Origin: a virus
IMG/VR virus record: IMGVR_UViG_3300045988_154953
Reading direction: 5' to 3' (one strand)
DNA length: 64,000 nt
In this document: one piece after another, positions 1,846-39,699 of the stretch
Layout of the letters: each line of letters opens with the position of its first letter
Position numbering within the stretch: the first letter of the stretch is position 1
The notes under the pieces: generated by a model
Databases searched by the model: none
Told to the model about the DNA's origin: nothing
What the model saw: the letters and a program-made list of their open reading frames with translations, nothing else
Program-made: the position numbers and the translations under genes

Positions 1846-2031
1846 ATGAATAATATTAAGAAAAATTCGAGAGGACTTAGAGCAGAATTAAAAGTTTATG
1901 ATGATTTCATAGTTGACAAGGAAGAGTCCGATAAAATTATAGAAGCATTTGCGAATATACCTGAGAAGTATATTGTGACATATGATACGTTATTATATAT
2001 GAGTTCTGCATTGAAAGAAGGTGATGAATAG
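1846..2031 (+). CDS. hypothetical protein
   Basis: 61-aa ORF with SD-like gagagag upstream, abutting the next gene. Confidence 0.4.
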   Translation: MNNIKKNSRGLRAELKVYDDFIVDKEESDKIIEAFANIPEKYIVTYDTLLYMSSALKEGDE

Positions 2032-31849: not shown

Positions 31850-32017
31850 TTGAATCCTATTATGTATTTAATAGTTATTGTGGATGCTATTATAGTTTGG
31901 TTTCTATTAACGATTGTGTTTAAACCATTAGGATCAATTATTTCTAAGATATGGGATGACACATCTAAAACATTAAATGAAAAAGAAGAGAAAGAAGAGG
32001 ATAACAAGAATGGCTAA
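31850..32017 (+). CDS. small membrane protein coupled to the SPFH gene (below the track cutoff)
   Basis: Hand translation gives LNPIMYLIVIVDAIIVWFLLTIVFKPLG..EKEEKEEDNKNG. TTG 31850 follows ggtga, or ATG 31862 could be the start. Its stop overlaps the ATG of the next gene (ATGGCTAA). Confidence 0.4.
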   Translation: MNPIMYLIVIVDAIIVWFLLTIVFKPLGSIISKIWDDTSKTLNEKEEKEEDNKNG

Positions 32018-32951
32018 AAGAAAAGGATTAATCGGTGGCGTTGGATTGGCAGTATTAATCATTGGTGGTTTGTTTGTTGGAATTTCCTGTACAGAGAAAA
32101 TTCCGGCGGGTTATGTCGGTGTAGTTTATAACTCACTAAACGGTGGTGTTGATGGAGAGGTTATCACACAGGGATGGCATCTCGTATCACCTACAAAGAA
32201 AGTCACTACATATTCAATCGGTATTGAACAGTCTTATCTCACATCAGAAGAGAAAGGTGATTCGCCAGTTGACGAAAGTTTTTCAACACCAACATCTGAC
32301 GGTAAATCATTAACAGTTGATTTGGAATTTTCATACAAGTTTGATCAGGATAAGATCGCTGATACATTCATAAAATTCAAGGGGCAATCTGGAAACACTG
32401 TTAAAGATACATTTATTAAACCTAAGATGAGAGCTTGGACACAGGAAGTTACAGCAAAATATCCTGTTACTGATGTTTTTGGTGATAAGAGACAGGAATT
32501 AAACGAAGCACTTGATGTGTATCTAAAGCAGAAGTTTGAACCATATGGTATTATTATTGACACTGTGAACTTCACAAATATCTCCACTGATTCAGAAACT
32601 GCAGAAGCAATTCAGAAGAAAGTTACAGCGCAGCAGGAATTAGAACTGGCAACTATTGAAGCTAAAACAGCTAAAGTACAGGCAGATAAAGACAAAGAAG
32701 TAGCTCTTATTGCAGCTGAACAGGAAAAAGAAAAAGCAGCTATTGTTGCAGAGCAGAAGAAAATTCAGGCAGAAGGCGAAGCACAGGCTACAAAGATTAA
32801 AGCTGATGCAGAAGCAGAAGCAAATGTAAAGATTGCTAAATCACTTACACCGGAGCTGATTGAAAAGCAGAAGATCGAAAAATGGAATGGTTCTGTTCCT
32901 ACAGTCCAGGGTAGTTCAACACCTATTGTCAATATGAGTGATGATAAATAG
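32010..32951 (+). CDS. SPFH/band-7 (prohibitin-like) domain protein
   Basis: An N-terminal TM helix, then IPAGYVGVVYN..GWHLVSP and a long Ala/Glu/Lys-rich coiled coil. ATG 32010 is in frame with the track start 31977. Confidence 0.7.
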   Translation: MAKRKGLIGGVGLAVLIIGGLFVGISCTEKIPAGYVGVVYNSLNGGVDGEVITQGWHLVSPTKKVTTYSIGIEQSYLTSEEKGDSPVDESFSTPTSDGKSLTVDLEFSYKFDQDKIADTFIKFKGQSGNTVKDTFIKPKMRAWTQEVTAKYPVTDVFGDKRQELNEALDVYLKQKFEPYGIIIDTVNFTNISTDSETAEAIQKKVTAQQELELATIEAKTAKVQADKDKEVALIAAEQEKEKAAIVAEQKKIQAEGEAQATKIKADAEAEANVKIAKSLTPELIEKQKIEKWNGSVPTVQGSSTPIVNMSDDK

Positions 32952-32968
32952 TTTTAGAAAACGAATTT

Positions 32969-33132
32969 GTTTGGTTATGGATTAAAATTTGATTCATAAC
33001 CAAACGATAAAGTAATCAGTATATTAAGTATTATTACTTGATATCTGCAGGTGATTTTGCACCTGAAAAGTGAGGTTAATAACACTCACTAAAATCTGTG
33101 TAATTAGATTCGAAATGTACATGTGAATTTGA
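32969..33132 (+). ncRNA. tracrRNA-like structured RNA, module A (boundaries approximate)
   Basis: Hairpins at 32969-33005, 33010-33039, 33048-33065 (caggtg/cacctg) and 33069-33090 (agtgag/ctcact). Next come taaaat and the anti-repeat ctgtgtaatt (33096-33105), which is the exact reverse complement of repeat bases aattacacag. A second partial anti-repeat lies at 33117-33130. Confidence 0.5.
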
Positions 33133-33236
33133 GGTTTTAGAGATATATTAAATTACATAGATACAAAACTCATGGACTCTATAAGATAAGTATGGTGTGG
33201 TTTTAGAGATATATTAAATTACACAGGTACATAAAT
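33133..33236 (+). CRISPR. mini CRISPR array A: 2 repeats, 1 spacer
   Basis: R1 33133-33170 ggttttagagatatattaaattacatagatacaaaact. Spacer 33171-33198 catggactctataagataagtatggtgt. R2 33199-33236 is 34/38 identical to R1. Period 66 nt. Confidence 0.55.
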
Positions 33237-33247
33237 AAGTCTATAGA

Positions 33248-33276
33248 TTTACATAATTATAAAATAATTATAAATA
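33248..33276 (+). promoter_or_regulatory. candidate promoter of the nuclease gene
   Basis: TTTACA, a 17-nt spacer, then TAAATA, about 20 nt upstream of ATG 33296. The background is AT-rich, so the call is weak. Confidence 0.3.
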
Positions 33277-33295
33277 TGAAGGATAACAAATAGCA

Positions 33296-35026
33296 ATGAA
33301 TACAATAAAAAATACATATATACGAACATTAAAATTTAATTTAAATTTAACACCAAAATTCGAAACAGAAGAAGATAATAAAAAATATATAAATGATGTG
33401 TATTCATATCTAAGAGATGCTATATGGGCACAAAATAGAGCTATGAATATTGTTCTTGATCGAACTAAAGAAGCTTATACACTTGGACGAGGGATGAACA
33501 GGGTTAAAGAAATATATTATTCATATTCCCATCAAAAACCAATTAGTAATGACAAAAAAGAAAGCTTCTTAGAATCATTGTTGCAGTATGCACCTATAGA
33601 CGATCAATTTGTAAAAAATGAAGTTAAAAAATTACGTAAATTCTATGAATCTAAAAAGAAACCACCAAAAGAAGAAACTGTTTCTAAAAATTGTGAAGCT
33701 TTAAAAAATAAGTACATAAAATATGTTGGTAAATCAAAAGATGATGTCAAACGAGAATTAGATTTACTTGAAAATTATTGTGCATATCCAGAAGATATTT
33801 ATGAAAAATTTGCTAACGGATTAAGCACACCTGCATATATAAAACAGAAAGTAGAATCTTATTGGAAACAGGATGGAATAAAAACAAAAGTTATTTACTC
33901 GATGGATGAAAATCTCAGACGAATAAAAGATGCTCCATTGTTCATACCACCAAATGTTTTTTACAATAAAAAAGATGAATTAATCGGTTTGGTATATGAT
34001 TATACTGACTATATATCTTTTTTAGAAGATTTAGAAAATAAACGAAATGTAAATATATATTTAAGTATTCCATATAAAAAAGGTGAAGATAAATTAAAAT
34101 TCAAATTAGTTCTAGGGAATCCACATAAGTCTCGTGATTCTAGATTATCCATAAAAAGAATTTTTGAAGAAGAATATAGAATTAAAGGCAGCAGTATTGG
34201 ATTTACGAAGAATAAAGAAACTGGCAAAAATACAAATTTAACTTTATATCTTACTGTTGAAGTCCCACAAAATAAAGATAATACTCTTGATGAGAATGTA
34301 GTTGTTGGAGTAGATGTCGGCATCGCTATTCCATGTGTATGTGCTTTAAATAACGATAAATATACAAGAGAAAATATTGGAAGTTATGATACTTTATTTG
34401 CTAAAAGAACCCAGTTTAAAATGCAGAGAAGTAGATTGAATAGTCAATTAAAATTATCAAAGGGTGGACATGGAAGAAAAAGAAAGTTAAAGAAATTAGA
34501 ATTACTTTCAGGAAAAGAGAAAAATTACGTTGATACAGAATGTAGAAAGTATGCAAGTGATGTAATTAAATTTTGTTTAAAACATCATGCTAAATATATT
34601 AATTTAGAGCACCTAAAAGGATATCGAGAGAATCCTAAAGTATTAGCTGGATGGAGTTTTTATAAAATCCAAACATATATTGAACAAGCAGCTGAAAAAC
34701 ATGGAATTATTGTAAGGAAAATTAATCCATGTTATACATCACAGATTTGTAGCGTATGTGGAAATTGGCATCCAGAGAATAGACCAAAGGGTAAATTAGG
34801 GCAAGCATATTTTAATTGTCATAATATTGATTGTAAAACTCATAATACAGATTTGTATAAATATGGTATTAATGCAGACTTTAATGCTGCTAGGAATATA
34901 GCAATGTCAACATTATTTATTACCGATTCTGATGAGATCACAAAGAAACATTGGAAAGAAGCCAGAGAATATTATGGTATAGATGAATCGGATGATAAAG
35001 AAGAAAAATTAAATAAAGTAGCCTAA
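33296..35026 (+). CDS. cas12: compact type V CRISPR effector / TnpB-like RuvC nuclease (Cas12f-like)
   Basis: RuvC-I VVGVDVGIAIP, GGHGRKRKLKKL, RuvC-II YINLEHLKG, WSFYKIQTYIEQAAEKHGI, zinc ribbon CYTSQICSVCG..FNCHNIDCKTH, and RuvC-III INADFNAARNIA. Repeat arrays flank it on both sides. Confidence 0.8.
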   Translation: MNTIKNTYIRTLKFNLNLTPKFETEEDNKKYINDVYSYLRDAIWAQNRAMNIVLDRTKEAYTLGRGMNRVKEIYYSYSHQKPISNDKKESFLESLLQYAPIDDQFVKNEVKKLRKFYESKKKPPKEETVSKNCEALKNKYIKYVGKSKDDVKRELDLLENYCAYPEDIYEKFANGLSTPAYIKQKVESYWKQDGIKTKVIYSMDENLRRIKDAPLFIPPNVFYNKKDELIGLVYDYTDYISFLEDLENKRNVNIYLSIPYKKGEDKLKFKLVLGNPHKSRDSRLSIKRIFEEEYRIKGSSIGFTKNKETGKNTNLTLYLTVEVPQNKDNTLDENVVVGVDVGIAIPCVCALNNDKYTRENIGSYDTLFAKRTQFKMQRSRLNSQLKLSKGGHGRKRKLKKLELLSGKEKNYVDTECRKYASDVIKFCLKHHAKYINLEHLKGYRENPKVLAGWSFYKIQTYIEQAAEKHGIIVRKINPCYTSQICSVCGNWHPENRPKGKLGQAYFNCHNIDCKTHNTDLYKYGINADFNAARNIAMSTLFITDSDEITKKHWKEAREYYGIDESDDKEEKLNKVA

Positions 35027-35038
35027 GTGCTACTAAAC

Positions 35039-35183
35039 CAGTCGAAAGACTGCGGTGTGTTTTGGTGTGTTTATATAGCCTCAAATATAAACACCGCTAT
35101 TGTGGATACAATAGTACGCCGAAAGGTGAGGATTCGTCACTCACTAAAATCCATGTTAAAACTTGTATCTATGGTAATTTGGG
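35039..35183 (+). ncRNA. tracrRNA-like structured RNA, module B (boundaries approximate)
   Basis: Hairpins cagtc-gaaa-gactg (35039-35052), gtgtttatat/atataaacac (35067-35094), ctattgt/acaatag (35097-35114) and gtgag/ctcac (35126-35144). Next come taaaat and the anti-repeat ccatgttaaa (35151-35160), the exact reverse complement of repeat bases tttaacatgg. Confidence 0.55.
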
Positions 35184-35352
35184 GATTAAGAAGTATATCA
35201 TTTAACATGGGTACAAAACTCTATAGAGATACACTGTATATTTAGTTATGATTAAGAAGTATATCATTTAACATGGGTACAAAACTCAGCACTGCATTTA
35301 TTTTTAGGCAGGCACGATTAAGAAGTATATCATTTAACACGAATATAAAAAT
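35184..35352 (+). CRISPR. mini CRISPR array B: 3 repeats, 2 spacers
   Basis: The repeat gattaagaagtatatcatttaacatgggtacaaaact lies at 35184-35220 and 35250-35286 (identical). A third copy at 35316-35352 is degenerate at its 3' end. Spacers: ctatagagatacactgtatatttagttat and cagcactgcatttatttttaggcaggcac. Period 66 nt. Confidence 0.7.
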
Positions 35353-35369
35353 GAAACGGAGACAACTAA

Positions 35370-35918
35370 TTGATTATTATTATTGGTAAAACCGCATCTG
35401 GTAAAGACACAATTGTAAAAGAGTTATGTCTAAATCATAATTTCAAAAAGATTGTTACATATACAACCAGACCAATGCGAGAAAATGAAATTGATGGCAC
35501 TACATACCATTATATATCAAATGAAGAATTTAAGGGAAAAATTAATGAAGGATTTTTTGTAGAATATAAATCCTACCAATCTGAATTCGGTGAATGGTTC
35601 TATGGAACATCTGAAGAGAGCATTCTAAATTCTGATGACAAATCTATTATAATTCTTACACCTCAAGGGTACAAAGATATCTTATCTAAATATCCCAATC
35701 TTAATTATAAATCCATTTATTTATATGCAAGTAATAGAACAATTAGAAAACGTTTAATACAGCGTGGAGACGATGAGGCAGAAGCAAAGCGAAGAGTTAG
35801 ACATGATAAGAAAGATTTTAGAGGTATTTATAAAATAGTAGATAAAGTTATTTGTAATAATCAAAATAAACAATTTGAGAAGGTAATAAAAGAAATATTG
35901 GATGTGATTAAAGAATGA
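35370..35918 (+). CDS. gmk: guanylate kinase-like nucleotide kinase
   Basis: P-loop GKTASGKDT and the signature TTRPMRENEIDGTTYHYIS. TTG start. Confidence 0.75.
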   Translation: MIIIIGKTASGKDTIVKELCLNHNFKKIVTYTTRPMRENEIDGTTYHYISNEEFKGKINEGFFVEYKSYQSEFGEWFYGTSEESILNSDDKSIIILTPQGYKDILSKYPNLNYKSIYLYASNRTIRKRLIQRGDDEAEAKRRVRHDKKDFRGIYKIVDKVICNNQNKQFEKVIKEILDVIKE

Positions 35919-36352
35919 TAAATAAAATGACAAATAGAATAAACGTATATCTTTCTGGAGCAATTAAGAATACAGACTATAAATTCCAAGATTGGAGAGA
36001 ATATTGTTCTGATTCCATTTTAGCTGGTTTTTATCCACATTTAAATATTATTGATCCCAATAAATTTTTCAATTATACCGATAAACAACCAAAAACAGAT
36101 AAACAATGTATGGATTTGTTTATGTATCTATTAAAGAAAAGTGATGTTTTATTGGTTAATTTGGATCAATCGAATAGTAGCGTAGGTACCGGCATGGAAG
36201 TAGAATATGCAATTTGTAATAACATTCCTATTATTGCATTTGGTAATAAACCAGAGACTTGGTATAAGTGGGTTGAGATAAGTGCAGCAGTTATATTAGA
36301 AGATGCAGAGGAAGCATTAGAGTATATTGATAACTCATACGGAGTTATTTAG
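35915..36352 (+). CDS. nucleoside 2-deoxyribosyltransferase-like protein
   Basis: VYLSGAI..DWR and GTGMEVEYA motifs resemble the NDT/Rcl fold. It sits in the nucleotide-metabolism context. Confidence 0.4.
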   Translation: MINKMTNRINVYLSGAIKNTDYKFQDWREYCSDSILAGFYPHLNIIDPNKFFNYTDKQPKTDKQCMDLFMYLLKKSDVLLVNLDQSNSSVGTGMEVEYAICNNIPIIAFGNKPETWYKWVEISAAVILEDAEEALEYIDNSYGVI

Positions 36353-36400
36353 TATAAATGAAACATGATGATTATAAATAAATTAAGAAAGGATGATTAA

Positions 36401-37276
36401 ATGAAAGTAGTCAAGAGAGATTGTACGCTGGTAGATTTTGATAAAAATAAAATTTACACAGCGATAATGAAAGCGATGAAGGATGGATCAGGAATTGTGA
36501 AGCCGAAGGTAGCAGAAGACATCTCAAATGAGATATATGAAATGCACAAAAATGACGATGAAATCGACATTTCAACCATCGAATCAGAGGTCTTCGATAA
36601 ATTGATTACAAAAAAACAAAGACTTACTGCCAGAGCTTATGAAGGATATAGAAGTAAACGAGAGCTGCAACGAGAATATAACACTATAGATGATGAAATA
36701 ATCGGCCTTGTCGAAGATAAAAATGAATATTGGAAAGATGAAAATGCAAACAAAAATCCAATATTAAATCCAACGAAAAGAGATTATATTGCCGGTTCAG
36801 TAAGTACAGATGCAACAAAAAGATATTTATTATCACCAGAAATAGTACAAGCTCATATGGATGGTATTATTCACTTTCATGATGCAGATTATTTTATTCA
36901 ACATATGCATAATTGTGATCTAGTTAATCTTGAAGATATGTTACAAAATAACACTGTAATTAGTGGAGTATTAATTGAAAAACCACATTCTTTTTCTACT
37001 GCTTGTAATATAGCTACACAAGCCATTTCACAAATAGCAAGTAATCAATATGGGGGTCAAAGTGTTTCTTTGGCACATCTCGCTCCTTTCGTAGATATTT
37101 CAAGACAAAAAATAAGAGAAGAATTAGTAGAAGAATTTTCTTTATTGGGTTTCTCTAAGGGTGGAATTATAGACGAAGATTTTAATGCAGTTGTAGAAAA
37201 ACGTTTAAAGAAAGAAATTGAAAAAGGTGTTCAGACTATTCAATATCAATTAGTTACACTTATGACAACAAACGGT
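36401..37276 (+). CDS. nrdD: anaerobic ribonucleoside-triphosphate reductase, exon 1
   Basis: ATP-cone N-terminus (VVKRDCTLVDFDKNKI) and class III RNR body. The reading frame continues as ..LMTTNG | QAPFITIF.. when joined to 38332. Confidence 0.8.
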
Positions 37277-38331
37277 TAATTTTGGCTGTTGTAAAATCTT
37301 GTGAACCATGCCAATGGGTGTCTAATAAATTAGGCTAACGGTCAACTAACCTCAAGGGTAAGGTGGTAAGAGAACCTAAGTCCTGTAATAAGGATATGGT
37401 AATACCGTGTTAAGCGTTTTGTTTATAAAAATAAAAAAAGAAAGGGGGGGAATGAAAAATGTATGGATATATATATTTAACTACAAATCTAATCAACGAT
37501 CGAAAATATATAGGAAAACATAAAAGTGAATTTTATGACGATAAATATTATGGGAGTGGAAAGATTCTTTTGCAGGCTATATCAAAATATGGTATTGAAA
37601 ATTTTACGAATGAAATATTATACGAAGCGGATTACGCAGAAGAATTAAATAAAAAAGAAAAAGAATATATTTCATTATATAGAGGAAAATATGGAAAACA
37701 AATGTATAATATAGCGTCTGGAGGAGACGGGGGAGATACATACTCATCTAAATCTGAAGAAGAAAAAGAAGATTTTGTTAAGAAAATGGAGAAAATAAAT
37801 AGAGACAGATGTTCTTCGAAAGAATTTAAGATACAAGCTTCTGAACGTTTAACTAAAAAATATTCCAACATTGAAGAAAGAAAATTACAATCCGAAAGAA
37901 TTAAAAAAGCTTGGGATAATGAGCAATTAAAGGAAGATCAGAGCGAGCGATTAAAAAATTATTATAAAACACATAAAAAAGAAAATTCATATAATAACAT
38001 TCCATGTGGGATTAAATTTAATGGGGTAAAATATGAATTTGAAAGTGTTAAGCAATTAAAAAAATTCATAAAAGAAGAGTTTAATTTTGTCCCAGGAAAT
38101 TCAAAGATAAAACAGATGATGATTGATGGGACTAATGGTATTCCATATGTTTCTTTCTTTAAAAAATACAGTAATTTGAATGGCGCGTTACTTTATTATA
38201 AACAAAACGAAAATGTAGAGACTATGGGTGATGAATGTAGCCCAGTAGAGCATGAGATAGGCACATGCTCCAAGTGCAAGACTGAAATAGAAGAGATAGT
38301 CCGCTCTGCATAGAAATATGCAGATGGGGTG
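37277..38331 (+). mobile_element. group I intron interrupting nrdD
   Basis: The 5' exon ends in U (37276), which pairs as U-G in a P1 helix aacggu/gcuguu (37271-37276 with 37085-type guide at 37285-37290). The intron ends in G (38331). It has a GC-rich structured 5' core (37300-37420) and a conserved-looking aagagatagtcc near the 3' end. It contains a homing endonuclease ORF. Confidence 0.75.
37459..38313 (+). CDS. GIY-YIG homing endonuclease (intron-encoded)
   Basis: N-terminal GYIYLTTNLINDRKYIGKH..YYGSG is a GIY-YIG motif. It lies inside the nrdD intron. Confidence 0.8.
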   Translation: MYGYIYLTTNLINDRKYIGKHKSEFYDDKYYGSGKILLQAISKYGIENFTNEILYEADYAEELNKKEKEYISLYRGKYGKQMYNIASGGDGGDTYSSKSEEEKEDFVKKMEKINRDRCSSKEFKIQASERLTKKYSNIEERKLQSERIKKAWDNEQLKEDQSERLKNYYKTHKKENSYNNIPCGIKFNGVKYEFESVKQLKKFIKEEFNFVPGNSKIKQMMIDGTNGIPYVSFFKKYSNLNGALLYYKQNENVETMGDECSPVEHEIGTCSKCKTEIEEIVRSA

Positions 38332-39699
38332 CAAGCCCCTTTTATTACAATTTTCATGTATCTTAATGAAGCCAAAAACGAACAAGAAAAACACGATTTA
38401 GCTTTATTAATCGAAGAAATGCTTCATCAAAGAATCAAAGGAGTAAAAAATAAAGAAGGAGTTTATGTAGCACCTGCATTTCCTAAACTAATTTATGTTT
38501 TGGAAGAAGATAATATTCATGAAGATTCAAAATATTGGTATTTGACAAAATTAGCTGCGGAGTGTTCTTCTAAACGTTTAGTTCCAGATTATATTTCAGA
38601 AAAAATTATGCTTGAAACAAAAGGTGATGTATACACCTGTATGGGATGTAGATCATTTTTAACAGTAGATAGATTTTCTGATAAAGTTTCTAACATTGCC
38701 AATGCGAAAAATTACGAACCTGACAAACACAAATATTACGGACGCTTCAATCAAGGTGTAGTTACACTTTCACTACCAGATATTGCTTTATCTTCAGAAG
38801 GTGATTTCGATACATTTTGGAAAATTTTTGAAGAAAGAACTGAATTGTGTCATAAAGCACTTAGAATCAGACATGAAAGATTGCGCGGTACATTATCTGA
38901 TGTTGCTCCTATATTGTGGCAAGATGGTGCTCTTGCTCGATTAAAAGAACATGAAAAAATCGATAAACTTCTTTATGATGGTTATTCAACTATATCTTTG
39001 GGATATGCCGGTTTATATGAATGTGTAAAATATATGACTGGACATTCTCATTCTGATGAAGGTATTGGCGAAGAGTTTGGATTAAAAGTTATGCAAGCTC
39101 TTAATGATAAGTGTGCTCAGTGGAAAAATGCTGAAAATATAGATTATAGTTTGTATGGTACGCCTCTCGAAAGTACAACGTATAAATTTGCAAAATGCTT
39201 AAAGGCTCGTTTTGGTAAAGATGTATTTATTAGATTGGATGGATTTGATAGAAATTATATAACTAATTCATATCATATTCCAGTGTTTGAGCCAATTACA
39301 GCGTTTGAAAAACTTAGAATAGAAGCAAAATTCCAATTATTAAGTCCTGGTGGAGCCATTTCTTATGTAGAAGTACCAAGCATGTCTCATAATATTAATG
39401 CTTTGATCGAAGTTATCAAATTCATTTACTATCACATTCAGTATGCAGAAATTAATACTAAAAGTTGCTACTGTGAAAAATGTGGCTATGATGGAGATAT
39501 TCCTCTTGTACTAGATGAAAATGGTAAATATAGATGGGAGTGTCCACAATGTGGCAATATAGATAATACTACCATGGATATTGCTTTTAGAGTCTGTGGT
39601 TACATTGGTACTGCAAAAAATGGTGGTAATCAAGGACGATATGGTGATGTACATGATCGTGTATATCACTTAGATGATATAGAATATAATGAGAAATAG
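38332..39699 (+). CDS. nrdD: anaerobic ribonucleoside-triphosphate reductase, exon 2
   Basis: Continues the class III RNR. A C-terminal zinc site CYCEKCG..CPQCG is followed by a glycyl-radical-type RVCGY motif. Confidence 0.8.
   Translation, partial: QAPFITIFMYLNEAKNEQEKHDLALLIEEMLHQRIKGVKNKEGVYVAPAFPKLIYVLEEDNIHEDSKYWYLTKLAAECSSKRLVPDYISEKIMLETKGDVYTCMGCRSFLTVDRFSDKVSNIANAKNYEPDKHKYYGRFNQGVVTLSLPDIALSSEGDFDTFWKIFEERTELCHKALRIRHERLRGTLSDVAPILWQDGALARLKEHEKIDKLLYDGYSTISLGYAGLYECVKYMTGHSHSDEGIGEEFGLKVMQALNDKCAQWKNAENIDYSLYGTPLESTTYKFAKCLKARFGKDVFIRLDGFDRNYITNSYHIPVFEPITAFEKLRIEAKFQLLSPGGAISYVEVPSMSHNINALIEVIKFIYYHIQYAEINTKSCYCEKCGYDGDIPLVLDENGKYRWECPQCGNIDNTTMDIAFRVCGYIGTAKNGGNQGRYGDVHDRVYHLDDIEYNEK

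What the first reader, a model, noticed from the sequence alone, without database searches (positions are those of the whole stretch)
33066..35210. Compensatory co-variation between two diverged repeats and their cognate anti-repeats
The two repeat families align end to end at 27 of 37 positions and share the 3' end GTACAAAACT, so they are paralogs. In the aligned 10-nt window that pairs with the anti-repeat they differ at 5 positions (AATTACACAG versus TTTAACATGG). Each anti-repeat (CTGTGTAATT versus CCATGTTAAA) carries exactly the complementary changes. The protein-facing scaffold block (gtgagg hairpin plus cactcactaaaat) is conserved between modules, whereas hairpin loops and distal stems differ while keeping their pairing. 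This pattern is what is expected of two functional, orthogonal guide scaffolds serving one effector. It is hard to explain by chance.
Basis: seen in the sequence. Interest (0 to 1): 0.85.

Follow-up and report, generated by a model that had tools for sequence, protein, structure and literature searches.

The report
Phage Cas12f with two tracrRNA–array cassettes
A gut-phage genome carries a miniature Cas12f-type CRISPR nuclease gene flanked by two self-contained guide-RNA cassettes (scaffold RNA plus a tiny spacer array). Base-pairing inside each cassette has been kept by matched mutations, and the same design, with 2–6 cassettes per gene, recurs in about 190 related phage contigs.

Summary
ORF 33296-35026 is a 576-aa Cas12f-fold nuclease. 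Its best solved relative is CnCas12f1, and the RuvC triad is invariant. It is flanked on its own strand by two paralogous cassettes, each a tracrRNA-like scaffold followed by a mini-array of 36-nt repeats and 30-nt spacers.

Inside the window alone the evidence is modest: a 10-nt complement arises in 0.7-2.5% of shuffles. Comparative data settle it. In 99 distinct cassettes from related phages, 95% of cells pair, against 32-44% when the partner is slid, and 14 of 20 pairs show compensatory changes. The pseudoknot co-varies too (TTTTG/CAAAA, TTTCG/CGAAA, TTCAG/CTGAA and others).

Both window cassettes have positional orthologues in phages whose nucleases are only 40-50% identical, so both are maintained. 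One window spacer has a perfect 30/30 target with a 5' TTTA flank.

"Orthogonal" is only partly supported. Cognate duplexes are predicted at about -14 kcal/mol and crossed ones at -5 to -7, but the pseudoknot is shared. Whether the scaffold acts in cis or in trans is unresolved.

Verdict: a new multi-cassette variant of type V-F.

The parts
33048..33065 (+). Cassette A, stem S1 (CAGGTG / CACCTG). Its 6-nt loop ATTTTG (33054-33059) is the pseudoknot anti-repeat, complementary to the repeat tail CAAAA(C). This is the 'short' scaffold form.
   Evidence: S1a pairs with S1b at 5 or more of 6 positions in 104 of 107 cassettes, using more than 15 different stem sequences. Pseudoknot covariation.
33070..33089 (+). 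Cassette A, hairpin H2: GTGAGGtt aat aaCaCTCAC with a bulged A. The base is conserved and the distal 3 bp are variable.
   Evidence: The base pairs are near-invariant. The distal pairs show 4-6 pair types each.
33094..33105 (+). Cassette A, anti-repeat (ATCTGTGTAATT). It pairs with repeat positions 18-29.
   Evidence: the minimum-free-energy fold pairs it in cis with A1; 12/12 pairs.: -13.4 kcal/mol.
33134..33169 (+). Repeat A1 (36 nt). The duplex segment is 33151-33162 and the pseudoknot tail CAAAAC is 33164-33169.
33170..33199 (+). Spacer A (30 nt), TCATGGACTCTATAAGATAAGTATGGTGTG. No target was found.
   Evidence: no second copy of its 28-nt core (33172-33199) in the window; no match in GenBank phages; no match in IMG/VR.
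33200..33235 (+). Repeat A2, the terminal repeat. The duplex segment is intact (AATTACACAG) and the tail is degenerate (CATAAA).
33296..35026 (+). Cas12f-type effector, 576 aa. The RuvC triad D340/E438/D528 and the zinc-finger cysteines C485/C488/C508 are invariant among 21 homologues.
   Evidence: Pfam Cas12f1-like_TNB. NCBIfam. CnCas12f1 (8hr5) E = 3e-47; invariant columns. AlphaFold2 pLDDT 83.6; the top 21 Foldseek hits are all Cas12f.
35017..35034 (+). Hairpin with the effector's stop codon in its loop (AGTAGC CTAAGT GCTACT). It marks the boundary between the mRNA and cassette B.
   Evidence: It is conserved with compensatory changes in L003, L016, L019, L024 and L039.
35039..35052 (+). 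Cassette B, 5' hairpin S0 (CAGTC GAAA GACTG).
   Evidence: GNRA-loop hairpins occupy the same place in L004, L012, L019, L024 and L039.
35053..35121 (+). Cassette B, stem S1 (CGGTGT 35053-35058 / ACGCCG 35116-35121). It encloses the pseudoknot anti-repeat GTTTTG (35059-35064) and a 51-nt insert of two hairpins (35065-35115). This is the 'long' scaffold form.
35126..35144 (+). Cassette B, hairpin H2: GTGAGGA UUCG UCaCTCAC.
35149..35160 (+). Cassette B, anti-repeat (ATCCATGTTAAA).
   Evidence: 12/12 pairs.: -14.6 kcal/mol.
35184..35219 (+). Repeat B1 (36 nt).
35220..35249 (+). Spacer B1 (30 nt). No target was found.
35250..35285 (+). Repeat B2 (36 nt, identical to B1).
35286..35315 (+). Spacer B2 (30 nt). 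It has a perfect 30/30 protospacer in metagenome contig L173 1359-1388, with 5' flank TTTA.
35316..35351 (+). Repeat B3, the terminal degenerate repeat. Both the duplex segment and the tail are mutated; the predicted duplex with its own anti-repeat is only -5.0 kcal/mol.

Best explanation
The locus is a phage-borne, adaptation-less type V-F (Cas12f) CRISPR system in which one effector gene is served by two self-contained guide cassettes on its own strand.

Each cassette reads 5'-[S0 hairpin]-[stem S1 presenting a 6-nt pseudoknot anti-repeat, with or without an inserted stem-2-like hairpin]-GAAAG-[conserved hairpin H2]-UAAAAU-[12-nt anti-repeat]-[10-45-nt linker]-[36-nt repeat - 30-nt spacer]n-[degenerate terminal repeat].

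Shown:
- the anti-repeat pairs with repeat positions 18-29;
- the S1 loop pairs with the last 5-6 nt of the repeat, directly 5' of the spacer.

Together these give the guide-pseudoknot-stem architecture that TnpB ωRNA and Cas12f sgRNAs share.

Inferred:
- The cassette is transcribed as one RNA. Cassette B may be read through from the effector mRNA across the stop-codon hairpin.
- The scaffold pairs with the adjacent repeat in cis, and with the further repeats in trans.
- Host RNases trim the RNA, and a Cas12f dimer binds the conserved H2/pseudoknot core.
- The complex cuts DNA that carries a 5'-TTTR PAM and belongs to competing mobile elements.

The compensatory changes are the trace of purifying selection on both helices in each cassette since an old duplication. 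Sequence divergence between cassettes makes each scaffold prefer its own repeat. It should also limit recombination between direct copies that flank the gene; that last point is inferred and was not tested.
For: Effector:
- Cas12f by sequence (8hr5 CnCas12f1 E = 3e-47, Al3Cas12f 5e-42).
- Cas12f by fold (the top 21 hits are all Cas12f, aligned along the full length).
- The catalytic and zinc-finger residues are invariant.

RNA duplex and H2:
- 95% of cells paired against 32-44% when slid; 14 of 20 pairs with double changes; 0/500 shuffles as good.

Pseudoknot:
- The complement of a cassette's own repeat tail is present upstream in 107 of 109 cassettes and is rare for foreign tails: TTTCG 8/8 against 1/101; TTCAG 10/10 against 8/98; TTTTG 65/65 against 5/44.
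- It always lies directly 3' of a 6-nt segment that pairs with S1b.
- With its position fixed from S1 alone: 85% paired against 74% in shuffles, 33 compensatory cells, 0/500 shuffles.

Architecture:
- 221 covariance-model hits and 228 nhmmer hits, all on the gene strand, 2-6 per locus. There are only two in the window's 64 kb.

Maintenance of both cassettes:
- Positional orthologues exist across phages with effectors only 40-50% identical.

Interference function:
- Spacer B2 has a 30/30 protospacer with TTTA.
- A relative's spacer hits rival phages' effector gene with TTTG.

Published parallel:
- The guide-PK-stem architecture of ωRNA and Cas12f sgRNA is described in PMC10097598.

Other:
- No terminator lies between scaffold and array.
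- No Cas1/2/4 among ORFs of at least 110 aa.
Against: - There are no expression data. Transcript ends, processing sites and cis or trans use are all inferred.
- Only two protospacers support the PAM, and one of the two comes from a relative.
- Two of the three window spacers have no known target.
- The NCBIfam Cas12f2 model scores far below its cut-off (84.8 against 450). Residues 1-250 have no sequence match to solved Cas12f, so this is a divergent clade.
- The covariance-model alignment (A3) is fitted to the structure, and many cassettes are close relatives. Cell counts therefore overstate the number of independent events. The MAFFT seed alignment and the position-free k-mer test do not have the fitting problem.
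- A2 keeps a perfect duplex segment although it is the terminal repeat, so the idea that terminal repeats are disabled holds only through its tail.
Confidence: 0.85

Rival explanations
1. Selected orthogonality. The two scaffolds were driven apart so that each tracrRNA loads only its own crRNAs. This would give two insulated guide channels for one effector, perhaps with different properties, because B carries a stem-2-like insert and A does not.
For: - Cognate duplexes are predicted to be about twice as stable as crossed ones: -13.4 and -14.6 against -7.3 and -5.1 kcal/mol.
- Cognate pairing averages 10.8 of 12 pairs against 8.6 of 12 for non-cognate pairs within the same locus.
- In multi-cassette loci such as L018, the pseudoknot also differs between neighbouring cassettes: TTTCG, CTTTG, TTTTG, TTTCA.
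Against: - In this window the pseudoknot pair is the same in both cassettes.
- Crossed duplexes keep 8-9 of 12 pairs.
- Drift plus maintenance of each helix predicts the same pattern without any selection for insulation.
- There is no functional test.
Confidence: 0.3
2. Each cassette is a natural single-guide RNA. Scaffold, linker, first repeat and first spacer form one ωRNA-like molecule that folds in cis, and there is no free tracrRNA. The additional repeat-spacer units are recent tandem copies that borrow scaffolds in trans or are poorly used.
For: - Scaffold and repeat are collinear, 23-28 nt apart in the window and as little as about 10 nt apart elsewhere, with no terminator between them.
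- Single-strand folds pair them in cis.
- 23 of 150 cassettes have a single repeat.
- The order matches ωRNA, which has been described as a 'natural sgRNA' (PMC10097598).
Against: - 127 of 150 cassettes have 2-5 repeats.
- Spacer B2, the second spacer of its array, is the one with a perfect target. Downstream units therefore seem to be in use, which needs pairing in trans.
Confidence: 0.35
3. This is a TnpB/IS200-IS605-type transposon remnant. The protein would be a TnpB, the downstream scaffold its ωRNA, and the 'repeats' duplicated transposon-end sequence rather than a CRISPR array.
For: - NCBIfam guided_TnpB scores above its cut-off (126 against 100).
- JGI names some homologues 'IS605 OrfB family transposase'.
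- Cassette B starts right after the stop codon, where ωRNAs lie.
Against: - The arrays are regular, with 36-nt repeats and 30-nt unique spacers, and up to 5 repeats.
- Spacers match foreign DNA next to TTTR.
- A second cassette lies upstream of the gene.
- The closest solved relatives by sequence and by fold are all Cas12f. TnpB structures rank 23rd and 32nd.
- Pfam reported no match to the IS200-like transposase family among the families listed (25 of 33).
Confidence: 0.03
4. The complementarity is chance, arising in an AT-rich sequence (31% G+C).
For: A single 10-nt complement is not rare in the window alone: 2.5% and 0.7% of shuffles.
Against: - The complement lies at the same position relative to a conserved block in both cassettes.
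- It is maintained with compensatory changes in 99 distinct cassettes.
- A second, independent helix co-varies as well.
Confidence: 0.01

Closest known systems
Type V-F1 CRISPR-Cas12f with tracrRNA (CnCas12f1, PDB 8HR5; Al3Cas12f, 9NZO; AsCas12f; Un1Cas12f1)
   Same: - Miniature RuvC plus zinc-finger (TNB) nuclease. It is the best match by sequence and by fold.
- The guide is built from a long scaffold RNA that pairs with the repeat in a distal duplex and in a guide-adjacent pseudoknot (PMC10097598).
- Scaffold stems are variable and can be dispensed with (stem 2 and stem 4; PMC13186708).
- The inferred PAM is T-rich.
   Different: - It is 576 aa, and its first 250 residues have no sequence match to solved Cas12f. 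Identity to CnCas12f1 over the fold alignment is 28%.
- It is encoded by phages without Cas1/2/4.
- One gene is served by 2-6 scaffold-plus-mini-array cassettes, each with its own anti-repeat and repeat variant, placed on both sides of the gene.
- My literature searches found no description of such multi-scaffold loci.
TnpB ωRNA (ISDra2) and the 'split ωRNA' model for the origin of tracrRNA and crRNA
   Same: - The order is collinear: scaffold, then the crRNA-like segment, then the guide.
- The guide-PK-stem core is shared.
- One cassette begins right at the 3' end of the nuclease gene.
   Different: - The crRNA-like segment plus guide is tandemly repeated, with different 30-nt spacers.
- The connector is 40-60 nt rather than a tetraloop.
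- No transposon features were seen.
- The protein is nearer to Cas12f than to TnpB.
Cas12p ('Cas12 hacker'), a phage-encoded miniature Cas12 with tracrRNA (bioRxiv 10.1101/2025.01.20.633832; PDB 9JFS)
   Same: It is phage-encoded, 500-700 aa, dependent on a tracrRNA, and proposed to target rival nucleic acids.
   Different: - It is a different family. 9JFS ranks only 22nd in the fold search, at 13% identity, and is absent from the sequence hits.
- Cas12p uses a GTN PAM; here the flanks are TTTR.
Virus-borne CRISPR mini-arrays and phage-encoded CRISPR systems used in conflicts between viruses (reviewed in PMC11656645)
   Same: - The arrays are very short (1-4 spacers) and there is no adaptation module.
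- Spacers target other mobile elements. One relative's spacer targets the homologous nuclease gene of rival phages.
   Different: These arrays come with their own effector and, unusually, each with its own scaffold RNA.
Co-evolution of tracrRNA and repeat, and orthogonality among Cas9 systems (my own knowledge: Chylinski et al. 2013/2014, Fonfara et al. 2014, Faure et al. 2019)
   Same: The anti-repeat tracks the repeat by compensatory change, and the protein-binding modules are conserved.
   Different: In Cas9 the divergence is between loci or species, each with its own effector. Here diverged pairs coexist in one locus and share one effector.

Membership tests
Type V-F / Cas12f | Small (about 400-700 aa) single effector with a C-terminal RuvC split by a zinc-finger TNB domain, and an intact catalytic triad | tested here: met
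   - 576 aa.
- Pfam Cas12f1-like_TNB scores 50.8 bits against a cut-off of 26.3.
- D340, E438, D528 and C485, C488, C508 are invariant in 21 homologues. Assigning these residues to the RuvC triad rests on motif context and on the alignment to 8hr5.
Type V-F / Cas12f | Closest relatives by sequence and by fold are experimentally characterised Cas12f proteins | tested here: met
   - Sequence: 8hr5 (CnCas12f1) 3e-47 and 9nzo/9nzr (Al3Cas12f) 5e-42.
- Fold: Foldseek ranks 1-21 are all Cas12f, with TM-score (target-normalised) 0.66-0.73. TnpB and other Cas12 types rank lower.
Type V-F / Cas12f | Curated NCBIfam Cas12f model above its cut-off | tested here: not met
   - NF049972 (Cas12f2) scores 84.8 bits against a cut-off of 450.
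- Only the superfamily model guided_TnpB passes (126 against 100).
- No Cas12f1-specific NCBIfam model was among the families reported.
- The protein is therefore a divergent clade and not an equivalog of the curated subfamily.
Type V-F / Cas12f | Guide made of a crRNA plus a tracrRNA-like scaffold, forming a repeat:anti-repeat duplex and a guide-adjacent pseudoknot | tested here: met
   Both helices are supported by covariation. The evidence is from sequence only, with no RNA data.
Type V-F / Cas12f | Adjacent CRISPR array with unique spacers, and a 5' PAM on targets | tested here: met
   - 36-nt repeats and 30-nt spacers.
- Two protospacers with 5' TTTA and TTTG. With n = 2 the PAM is a hint only.
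Type V-F / Cas12f | Asymmetric homodimer on one guide RNA | not testable with these tools
   This needs biochemistry or a structure of the complex.
Type V-F / Cas12f | Adaptation genes (cas1, cas2, cas4) in the locus. These are typical of V-F1 but are not required. | tested here: not met
   - No Cas1/2/4 family among 59 window ORFs of at least 110 aa (Pfam, PADLOC).
- None in the neighbours of homologues.
- ORFs under 110 aa, the size of Cas2, were not scanned.
TnpB / IS200-IS605 (OMEGA) | Single ωRNA with one guide set by the transposon end, and transposon ends or tnpA nearby | tested here: not met
   - There are multi-spacer arrays and a second cassette upstream of the gene.
- No match to the IS200-like transposase family among the families listed by Pfam (which shows 25 of 33).
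- LE/RE ends were not searched for specifically.
Cas12p ('hacker') | Sequence and fold membership in the Cas12p family | tested here: not met
   9jfs is absent from the sequence hits. In the fold search it ranks 22nd, with E = 1e-10 and 13% identity.

The most novel reading that the evidence does not exclude
The cassettes are modular, exchangeable 'guide cartridges'. Each is a near-ωRNA-like transcript that carries its own scaffold, so it works wherever it lands. The scaffolds are mutually insulated by divergence in two helices, the duplex and the pseudoknot. Phages of this clade stack 2-6 such cartridges around one Cas12f gene and swap them in conflicts between phages.

On this reading the clade would be a living intermediate between the single ωRNA of TnpB and the split tracrRNA plus CRISPR array of canonical type V. 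The short and long scaffold forms could also load the asymmetric Cas12f dimer differently.
Probability: 0.25. Interest if true: 0.75.

Novelty: new variant of a known kind. Interest (0 to 1): 0.58.

Why it matters
- It provides about a hundred natural, evidently functional variants of one Cas12f guide scaffold. They show which positions are fixed (the H2 base, the bulged A, the linkers GAAAG and UAAAAU) and which are free so long as pairing holds (S1, distal H2, both repeat contacts). They also show that a whole stem-2-like insert can be present or absent for the same protein. That is direct design information for miniature genome editors and for multiplexing with orthogonal scaffolds.
- The collinear arrangement of scaffold, repeat and spacer, repeated as a cassette, is the layout predicted for the step from ωRNA to tracrRNA plus array. 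It makes that model testable in a living system.
- It adds a phage-specific Cas12f clade, with about 190 IMG/VR contigs of 50-210 kb. The clade has evidence of phage-against-phage targeting, including attack on a rival's own nuclease gene.

Tried and rejected
- Rfam scan of 32000-36500 at E up to 10: only three chance-level hits and no known RNA family.
- DNA similarity of the locus to GenBank phages: none.
- Spacer targets. The 28-nt cores of the three window spacers have no second copy in the window. 34 spacers of the window and close relatives have no match in GenBank phages. 20-mers of the three window spacers have no match in IMG/VR. Only the metagenome scan gave a hit.
- The target contig L173 could not be identified. 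PHROGs gave nothing useful. IMG/VR has no relative of the targeted ORF. Only its first 54 nt match a human-faecal 'Bacteriophage sp.' record.
- My first attempt to place the S1 5' strand purely by complementarity failed for the short form, because of an off-by-one search range and ties. I replaced it with a position-free k-mer test and a corrected S1-anchored test.
- The sigma-70 promoter scan found fewer sites than shuffles give, so no promoter can be called.
- Cas12p membership was considered and rejected, as were the TnpB-transposon and chance explanations.
- Literature searches for multi-tracrRNA or dual-cassette Cas12f loci found nothing. The library lacks many subscription papers, for example Al-Shayeb et al. 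2022 and the TranC paper, so absence is not proof.


Full report
**What is at the coordinates**

The window (31% G+C) carries an ORF at 33296-35026 on the + strand, 576 aa. Diverged direct repeats with 66-nt spacing flank it on the same strand:
- two copies upstream, at 33134 and 33200;
- three copies downstream, at 35184, 35250 and 35316.

Repeat A1 and repeat B1 agree at 27 of 37 positions. The anti-repeats CTGTGTAATT (33096) and CCATGTTAAA (35151) are the exact complements of AATTACACAG (33217) and TTTAACATGG (35201 and 35267). GTGAGG and CACTCACTAAAAT occur in both flanks.

Four corrections apply.
1. AATTACACAG is found only in the terminal repeat A2. A1 has AATTACATAG, which gives one G·U pair.
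2. GTACAAAACT is found only in the B repeats.
3. The repeat is 36 nt and the spacer 30 nt (see Function below).
4. The helix is 12 bp long.

**Chance**

In the window alone, a perfect flank-repeat complement of at least 10 nt arises in 2.5% (A) and 0.7% (B) of shuffles. The comparative evidence below removes the doubt.

**The protein**

- Pfam finds the Cas12f1-like TNB domain.
- NCBIfam finds the TnpB-superfamily model above its cut-off, and Cas12f2 far below its cut-off.
- The best solved relatives by sequence are 8hr5 (E = 3e-47), 9nzo/9nzr (5e-42), and then AsCas12f, SpCas12f1 and Un1Cas12f1. All of these align to residues ~250-550 only.
- PMC13186708 identifies 8HR5 as CnCas12f1 and 9NZO/9NZR as Al3Cas12f.
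- An AlphaFold2 model (pLDDT 83.6) matches Cas12f structures along its full length in Foldseek ranks 1-21. Cas12p ('hacker', 9jfs) ranks 22nd at 13% identity, and TnpB structures rank 23rd and 32nd.
- D340, E438, D528 and the zinc-finger cysteines are invariant in 21 homologues.

It is therefore a divergent, probably active Cas12f.

**Context**

- The window is phage DNA: Sipho_Gp157, Mtd_N, tail-fibre repeat, integrase, NrdD, dUTPase and NAD-salvage genes.
- No Cas1/2/4 was found among ORFs of at least 110 aa.
- The protein has 437 homologues at E no greater than 1e-10.
- It has 193 relatives in IMG/VR, on contigs of mostly 50-210 kb.
- The best bacterial-genome hits reach only 36-43% identity and come from Clostridia and Erysipelotrichaceae assemblies. 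Three of them carry the same RNA cassette.

**The architecture is conserved**

Loci of homologues at 98, 74, 59, 57, 53 and 50% identity all carry a scaffold plus a mini-array on both sides of the gene. L004 carries three cassettes.

A covariance model built from 12 MAFFT-aligned cassettes found 221 matches in 88 sources. Every match is on the gene strand, and only the two expected ones lie in the 64-kb window. An nhmmer recount gave 228 matches. The number per IMG/VR locus (±1.5 kb of flank) was:

| Cassettes per locus | 0 | 1 | 2 | 3 | 4 | 6 |
|---|---|---|---|---|---|---|
| Loci (of 80) | 3 | 6 | 30 | 36 | 3 | 2 |

At least 53 of the 80 loci have cassettes on both sides of the gene. L018 shows five cassettes in tandem downstream of the gene. 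Arrays hold 1-5 repeats, and 23 of 150 cassettes have a single repeat.

**Covariation: the duplex and hairpin H2**

| Alignment | Cells paired | Pairs with changes on both sides | Shuffles as good | Paired when partner is slid |
|---|---|---|---|---|
| 12 seed cassettes, not fitted to a structure | 94.4% | 12 of 20 | 0/500 | 33-45% |
| 99 distinct model-aligned cassettes | 95.4% | 14 of 20 (284 cells) | 0/500 | 32-44% |

The five base pairs at the foot of H2 are nearly invariant. Its three distal pairs use 4-6 pair types each.

The last five to six nucleotides of the repeat lie directly 5' of the spacer. They are complementary to a hexamer in the 5' part of the scaffold. That hexamer tracks the repeat tail:
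- TTTTG/CAAAA
- TTTCG/CGAAA
- TTCAG/CTGAA
- CTTTG/CAAAG
- TTTTA/TAAAA
- TTTGA/TCAAA
- TTTGG/CCAAA
- TTTAG/CTAAA
- TTCTG/CAGAA

The complement of a cassette's own tail is present upstream in 107 of 109 cassettes. It is rare for foreign tails, for example TTTCG 8/8 against 1/101.

The hexamer always lies immediately 3' of six nucleotides that pair with the six nucleotides preceding GAAAG-H2. This stem, S1, pairs at 5 or more of 6 positions in 104 of 107 cassettes and uses more than 15 different stem sequences.

When the hexamer's position is fixed from S1 alone, the hexamer-tail helix is 85% paired against 74% in shuffles, with 33 compensatory cells and 0/500 shuffles as good.

There are two scaffold forms.
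- Short: the hexamer is the whole S1 loop. Window A is of this form (33048-33065).
- Long: a 35-56-nt hairpin insert follows the hexamer. Window B is of this form (35053-35121).

This is the guide-pseudoknot-stem core described for ISDra2 ωRNA and for Cas12f sgRNA (PMC10097598). The variable insert recalls the dispensable or protein-docking 'stem 2' of Cas12f guides (PMC13186708).

**Are both cassettes maintained, and are they orthogonal?**

Window A's nearest relatives are upstream cassettes of other phages (77-86% identity). Window B's nearest relatives are downstream cassettes (72-84%). A and B are 66% identical. The duplication is therefore old and both copies have been kept.

On orthogonality the evidence is mixed.
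- Cognate anti-repeat and repeat pairs form 10.8 of 12 pairs on average. Non-cognate pairs within the same locus form 8.6 of 12. In the window the figures are 12 against 8-9.
- Predicted duplex energies are -13.4 and -14.6 kcal/mol for cognate pairs, against -7.3 and -5.1 for crossed pairs.
- The pseudoknot pair is the same in both window cassettes.

Preference for the cognate partner is therefore plausible, but insulation is unproven. The covariation does not require it.

**Cis or trans**

The scaffold lies 23-28 nt 5' of the first repeat with no terminator-like site between them. Single-strand folds pair the two in cis.

Cassette B starts 13 nt after the stop codon. The stop codon itself sits in the loop of a conserved, co-varying hairpin.

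Single-repeat cassettes fit an ωRNA-like natural sgRNA. Arrays with 2-4 spacers need pairing in trans, and the targeted spacer B2 is the second in its array. I infer one primary transcript per cassette, used both ways. Only RNA data can decide.

**Function**

Spacer B2 (35286-35315) has a 30/30 protospacer in a 2.9-kb metagenome contig, L173 1359-1388. The site lies inside a 110-aa ORF, has no repeats nearby and carries a 5' TTTA flank. The match includes the 'TC' that follows CAAAAC, which fixes the repeat-spacer boundary.

A spacer of phage L081 matches the effector gene of phages L055-L063 and L090, with 1-3 mismatches and a 5' TTTG flank.

Two cases suggest a TTTR PAM and conflict between mobile elements. 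This is the role proposed for phage CRISPR systems and mini-arrays (PMC11656645). The other window spacers have no target in the collections I searched.

**Comparison and novelty**

The system works like type V-F, and I file it as a divergent Cas12f clade.

What I could not find described is the multi-cassette organisation. One effector gene is surrounded by 2-6 scaffold-plus-mini-array units, each with its own co-varying duplex and pseudoknot, and short and long scaffolds serve the same protein.

Co-evolution of tracrRNA and repeat is itself expected. The finding therefore confirms function rather than revealing a new principle.

I rate it a new variant of a known kind, of moderate to good interest.

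Noticed in passing
window 35286-35315; L173 1359-1388: Spacer B2 has a perfect 30/30 match in a 2.9-kb metagenome contig (ERZ1673752), inside a 110-aa ORF of unknown function, with a 5' flank of TTTA. The first 54 nt of that contig match a human-faecal 'Bacteriophage sp.' record (MT835751.1).
   Followed up: partly
L081 3067-3096 against L060/L057/L058/L062/L063/L090 at about 1946-1975 (minus strand): A spacer of one phage targets the RuvC-II region ('AKYINIENL') of the homologous Cas12f gene in a rival phage group, with 1-3 mismatches and a 5' TTTG flank. In effect, one phage's CRISPR system targets another's.
   Followed up: partly
window 35017-35034: A hairpin carries the effector's TAA stop codon in its loop. 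It is conserved with compensatory changes in L003, L016, L019, L024 and L039. It may be a processing or attenuation signal between the mRNA and cassette B.
   Followed up: no
window 35039-35052; also L004, L012, L019, L024, L039: A small GNRA-loop hairpin (for example CAGTC-GAAA-GACTG) lies directly 5' of stem S1 in many cassettes. It is weak or absent in window A and in the upstream cassette of L003.
   Followed up: no
window 35161-35183; L003, L004 and L008 downstream cassettes: The linker motif GTATCTATRG changes together with the first bases of the anti-repeat (CYATG). It may be an alternative hairpin that masks the anti-repeat, or a relic of a repeat.
   Followed up: no
window 33200-33235 and 35316-35351: The terminal repeats are degenerate mainly at their 3' ends, in the pseudoknot tail and, in B3, also in the duplex segment. 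This would keep the sequence downstream of the array from being used as a guide. A2 nevertheless keeps a perfect duplex segment.
   Followed up: partly
L004 2361-2495 and 22 other cassettes: Some cassettes have a single repeat and no second repeat. In the upstream cassette of L004, the would-be guide is the 5' UTR and ribosome-binding site of the effector gene itself. This may be a decayed array or an autoregulatory guide.
   Followed up: no
L033 ~1113-1142 against L021/L023/L025/L026 1162-1188: A spacer in one phage's array is the reverse complement of a spacer in related phages' arrays. This suggests protospacers taken from the same target on opposite strands.
   Followed up: no
window 33170, 35220, 35286: All three window spacers begin with TC. 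This was not seen in the closest relative, L003, and may be chance (about 1 in 256 for the second and third to match the first).
   Followed up: no
window 36401-39699: The anaerobic ribonucleotide reductase gene (NrdD) is split into two ORFs (36401-37279 and 38329-39699) by a GIY-YIG homing-endonuclease ORF (37459-38313). This is probably an intron or an intein-like insertion.
   Followed up: no
window, not mapped (Pfam hits): The phage encodes NAD-salvage and NAD-synthesis enzymes (NAPRTase/NAMPT_N, NAD synthase, isochorismatase) and a DarG-like protein. These may be countermeasures against NAD-depleting host defences.
   Followed up: no
L098-L114 (genome contigs): Bacteroidales genomes hold a separate group of Cas12f-like genes, about 35-39% identical over the RuvC half, that lack this RNA cassette apart from one marginal match (L105, E = 0.013). 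They may be the exapted dCas12f transcription factors described in PMC13472631. This was not checked.
   Followed up: no
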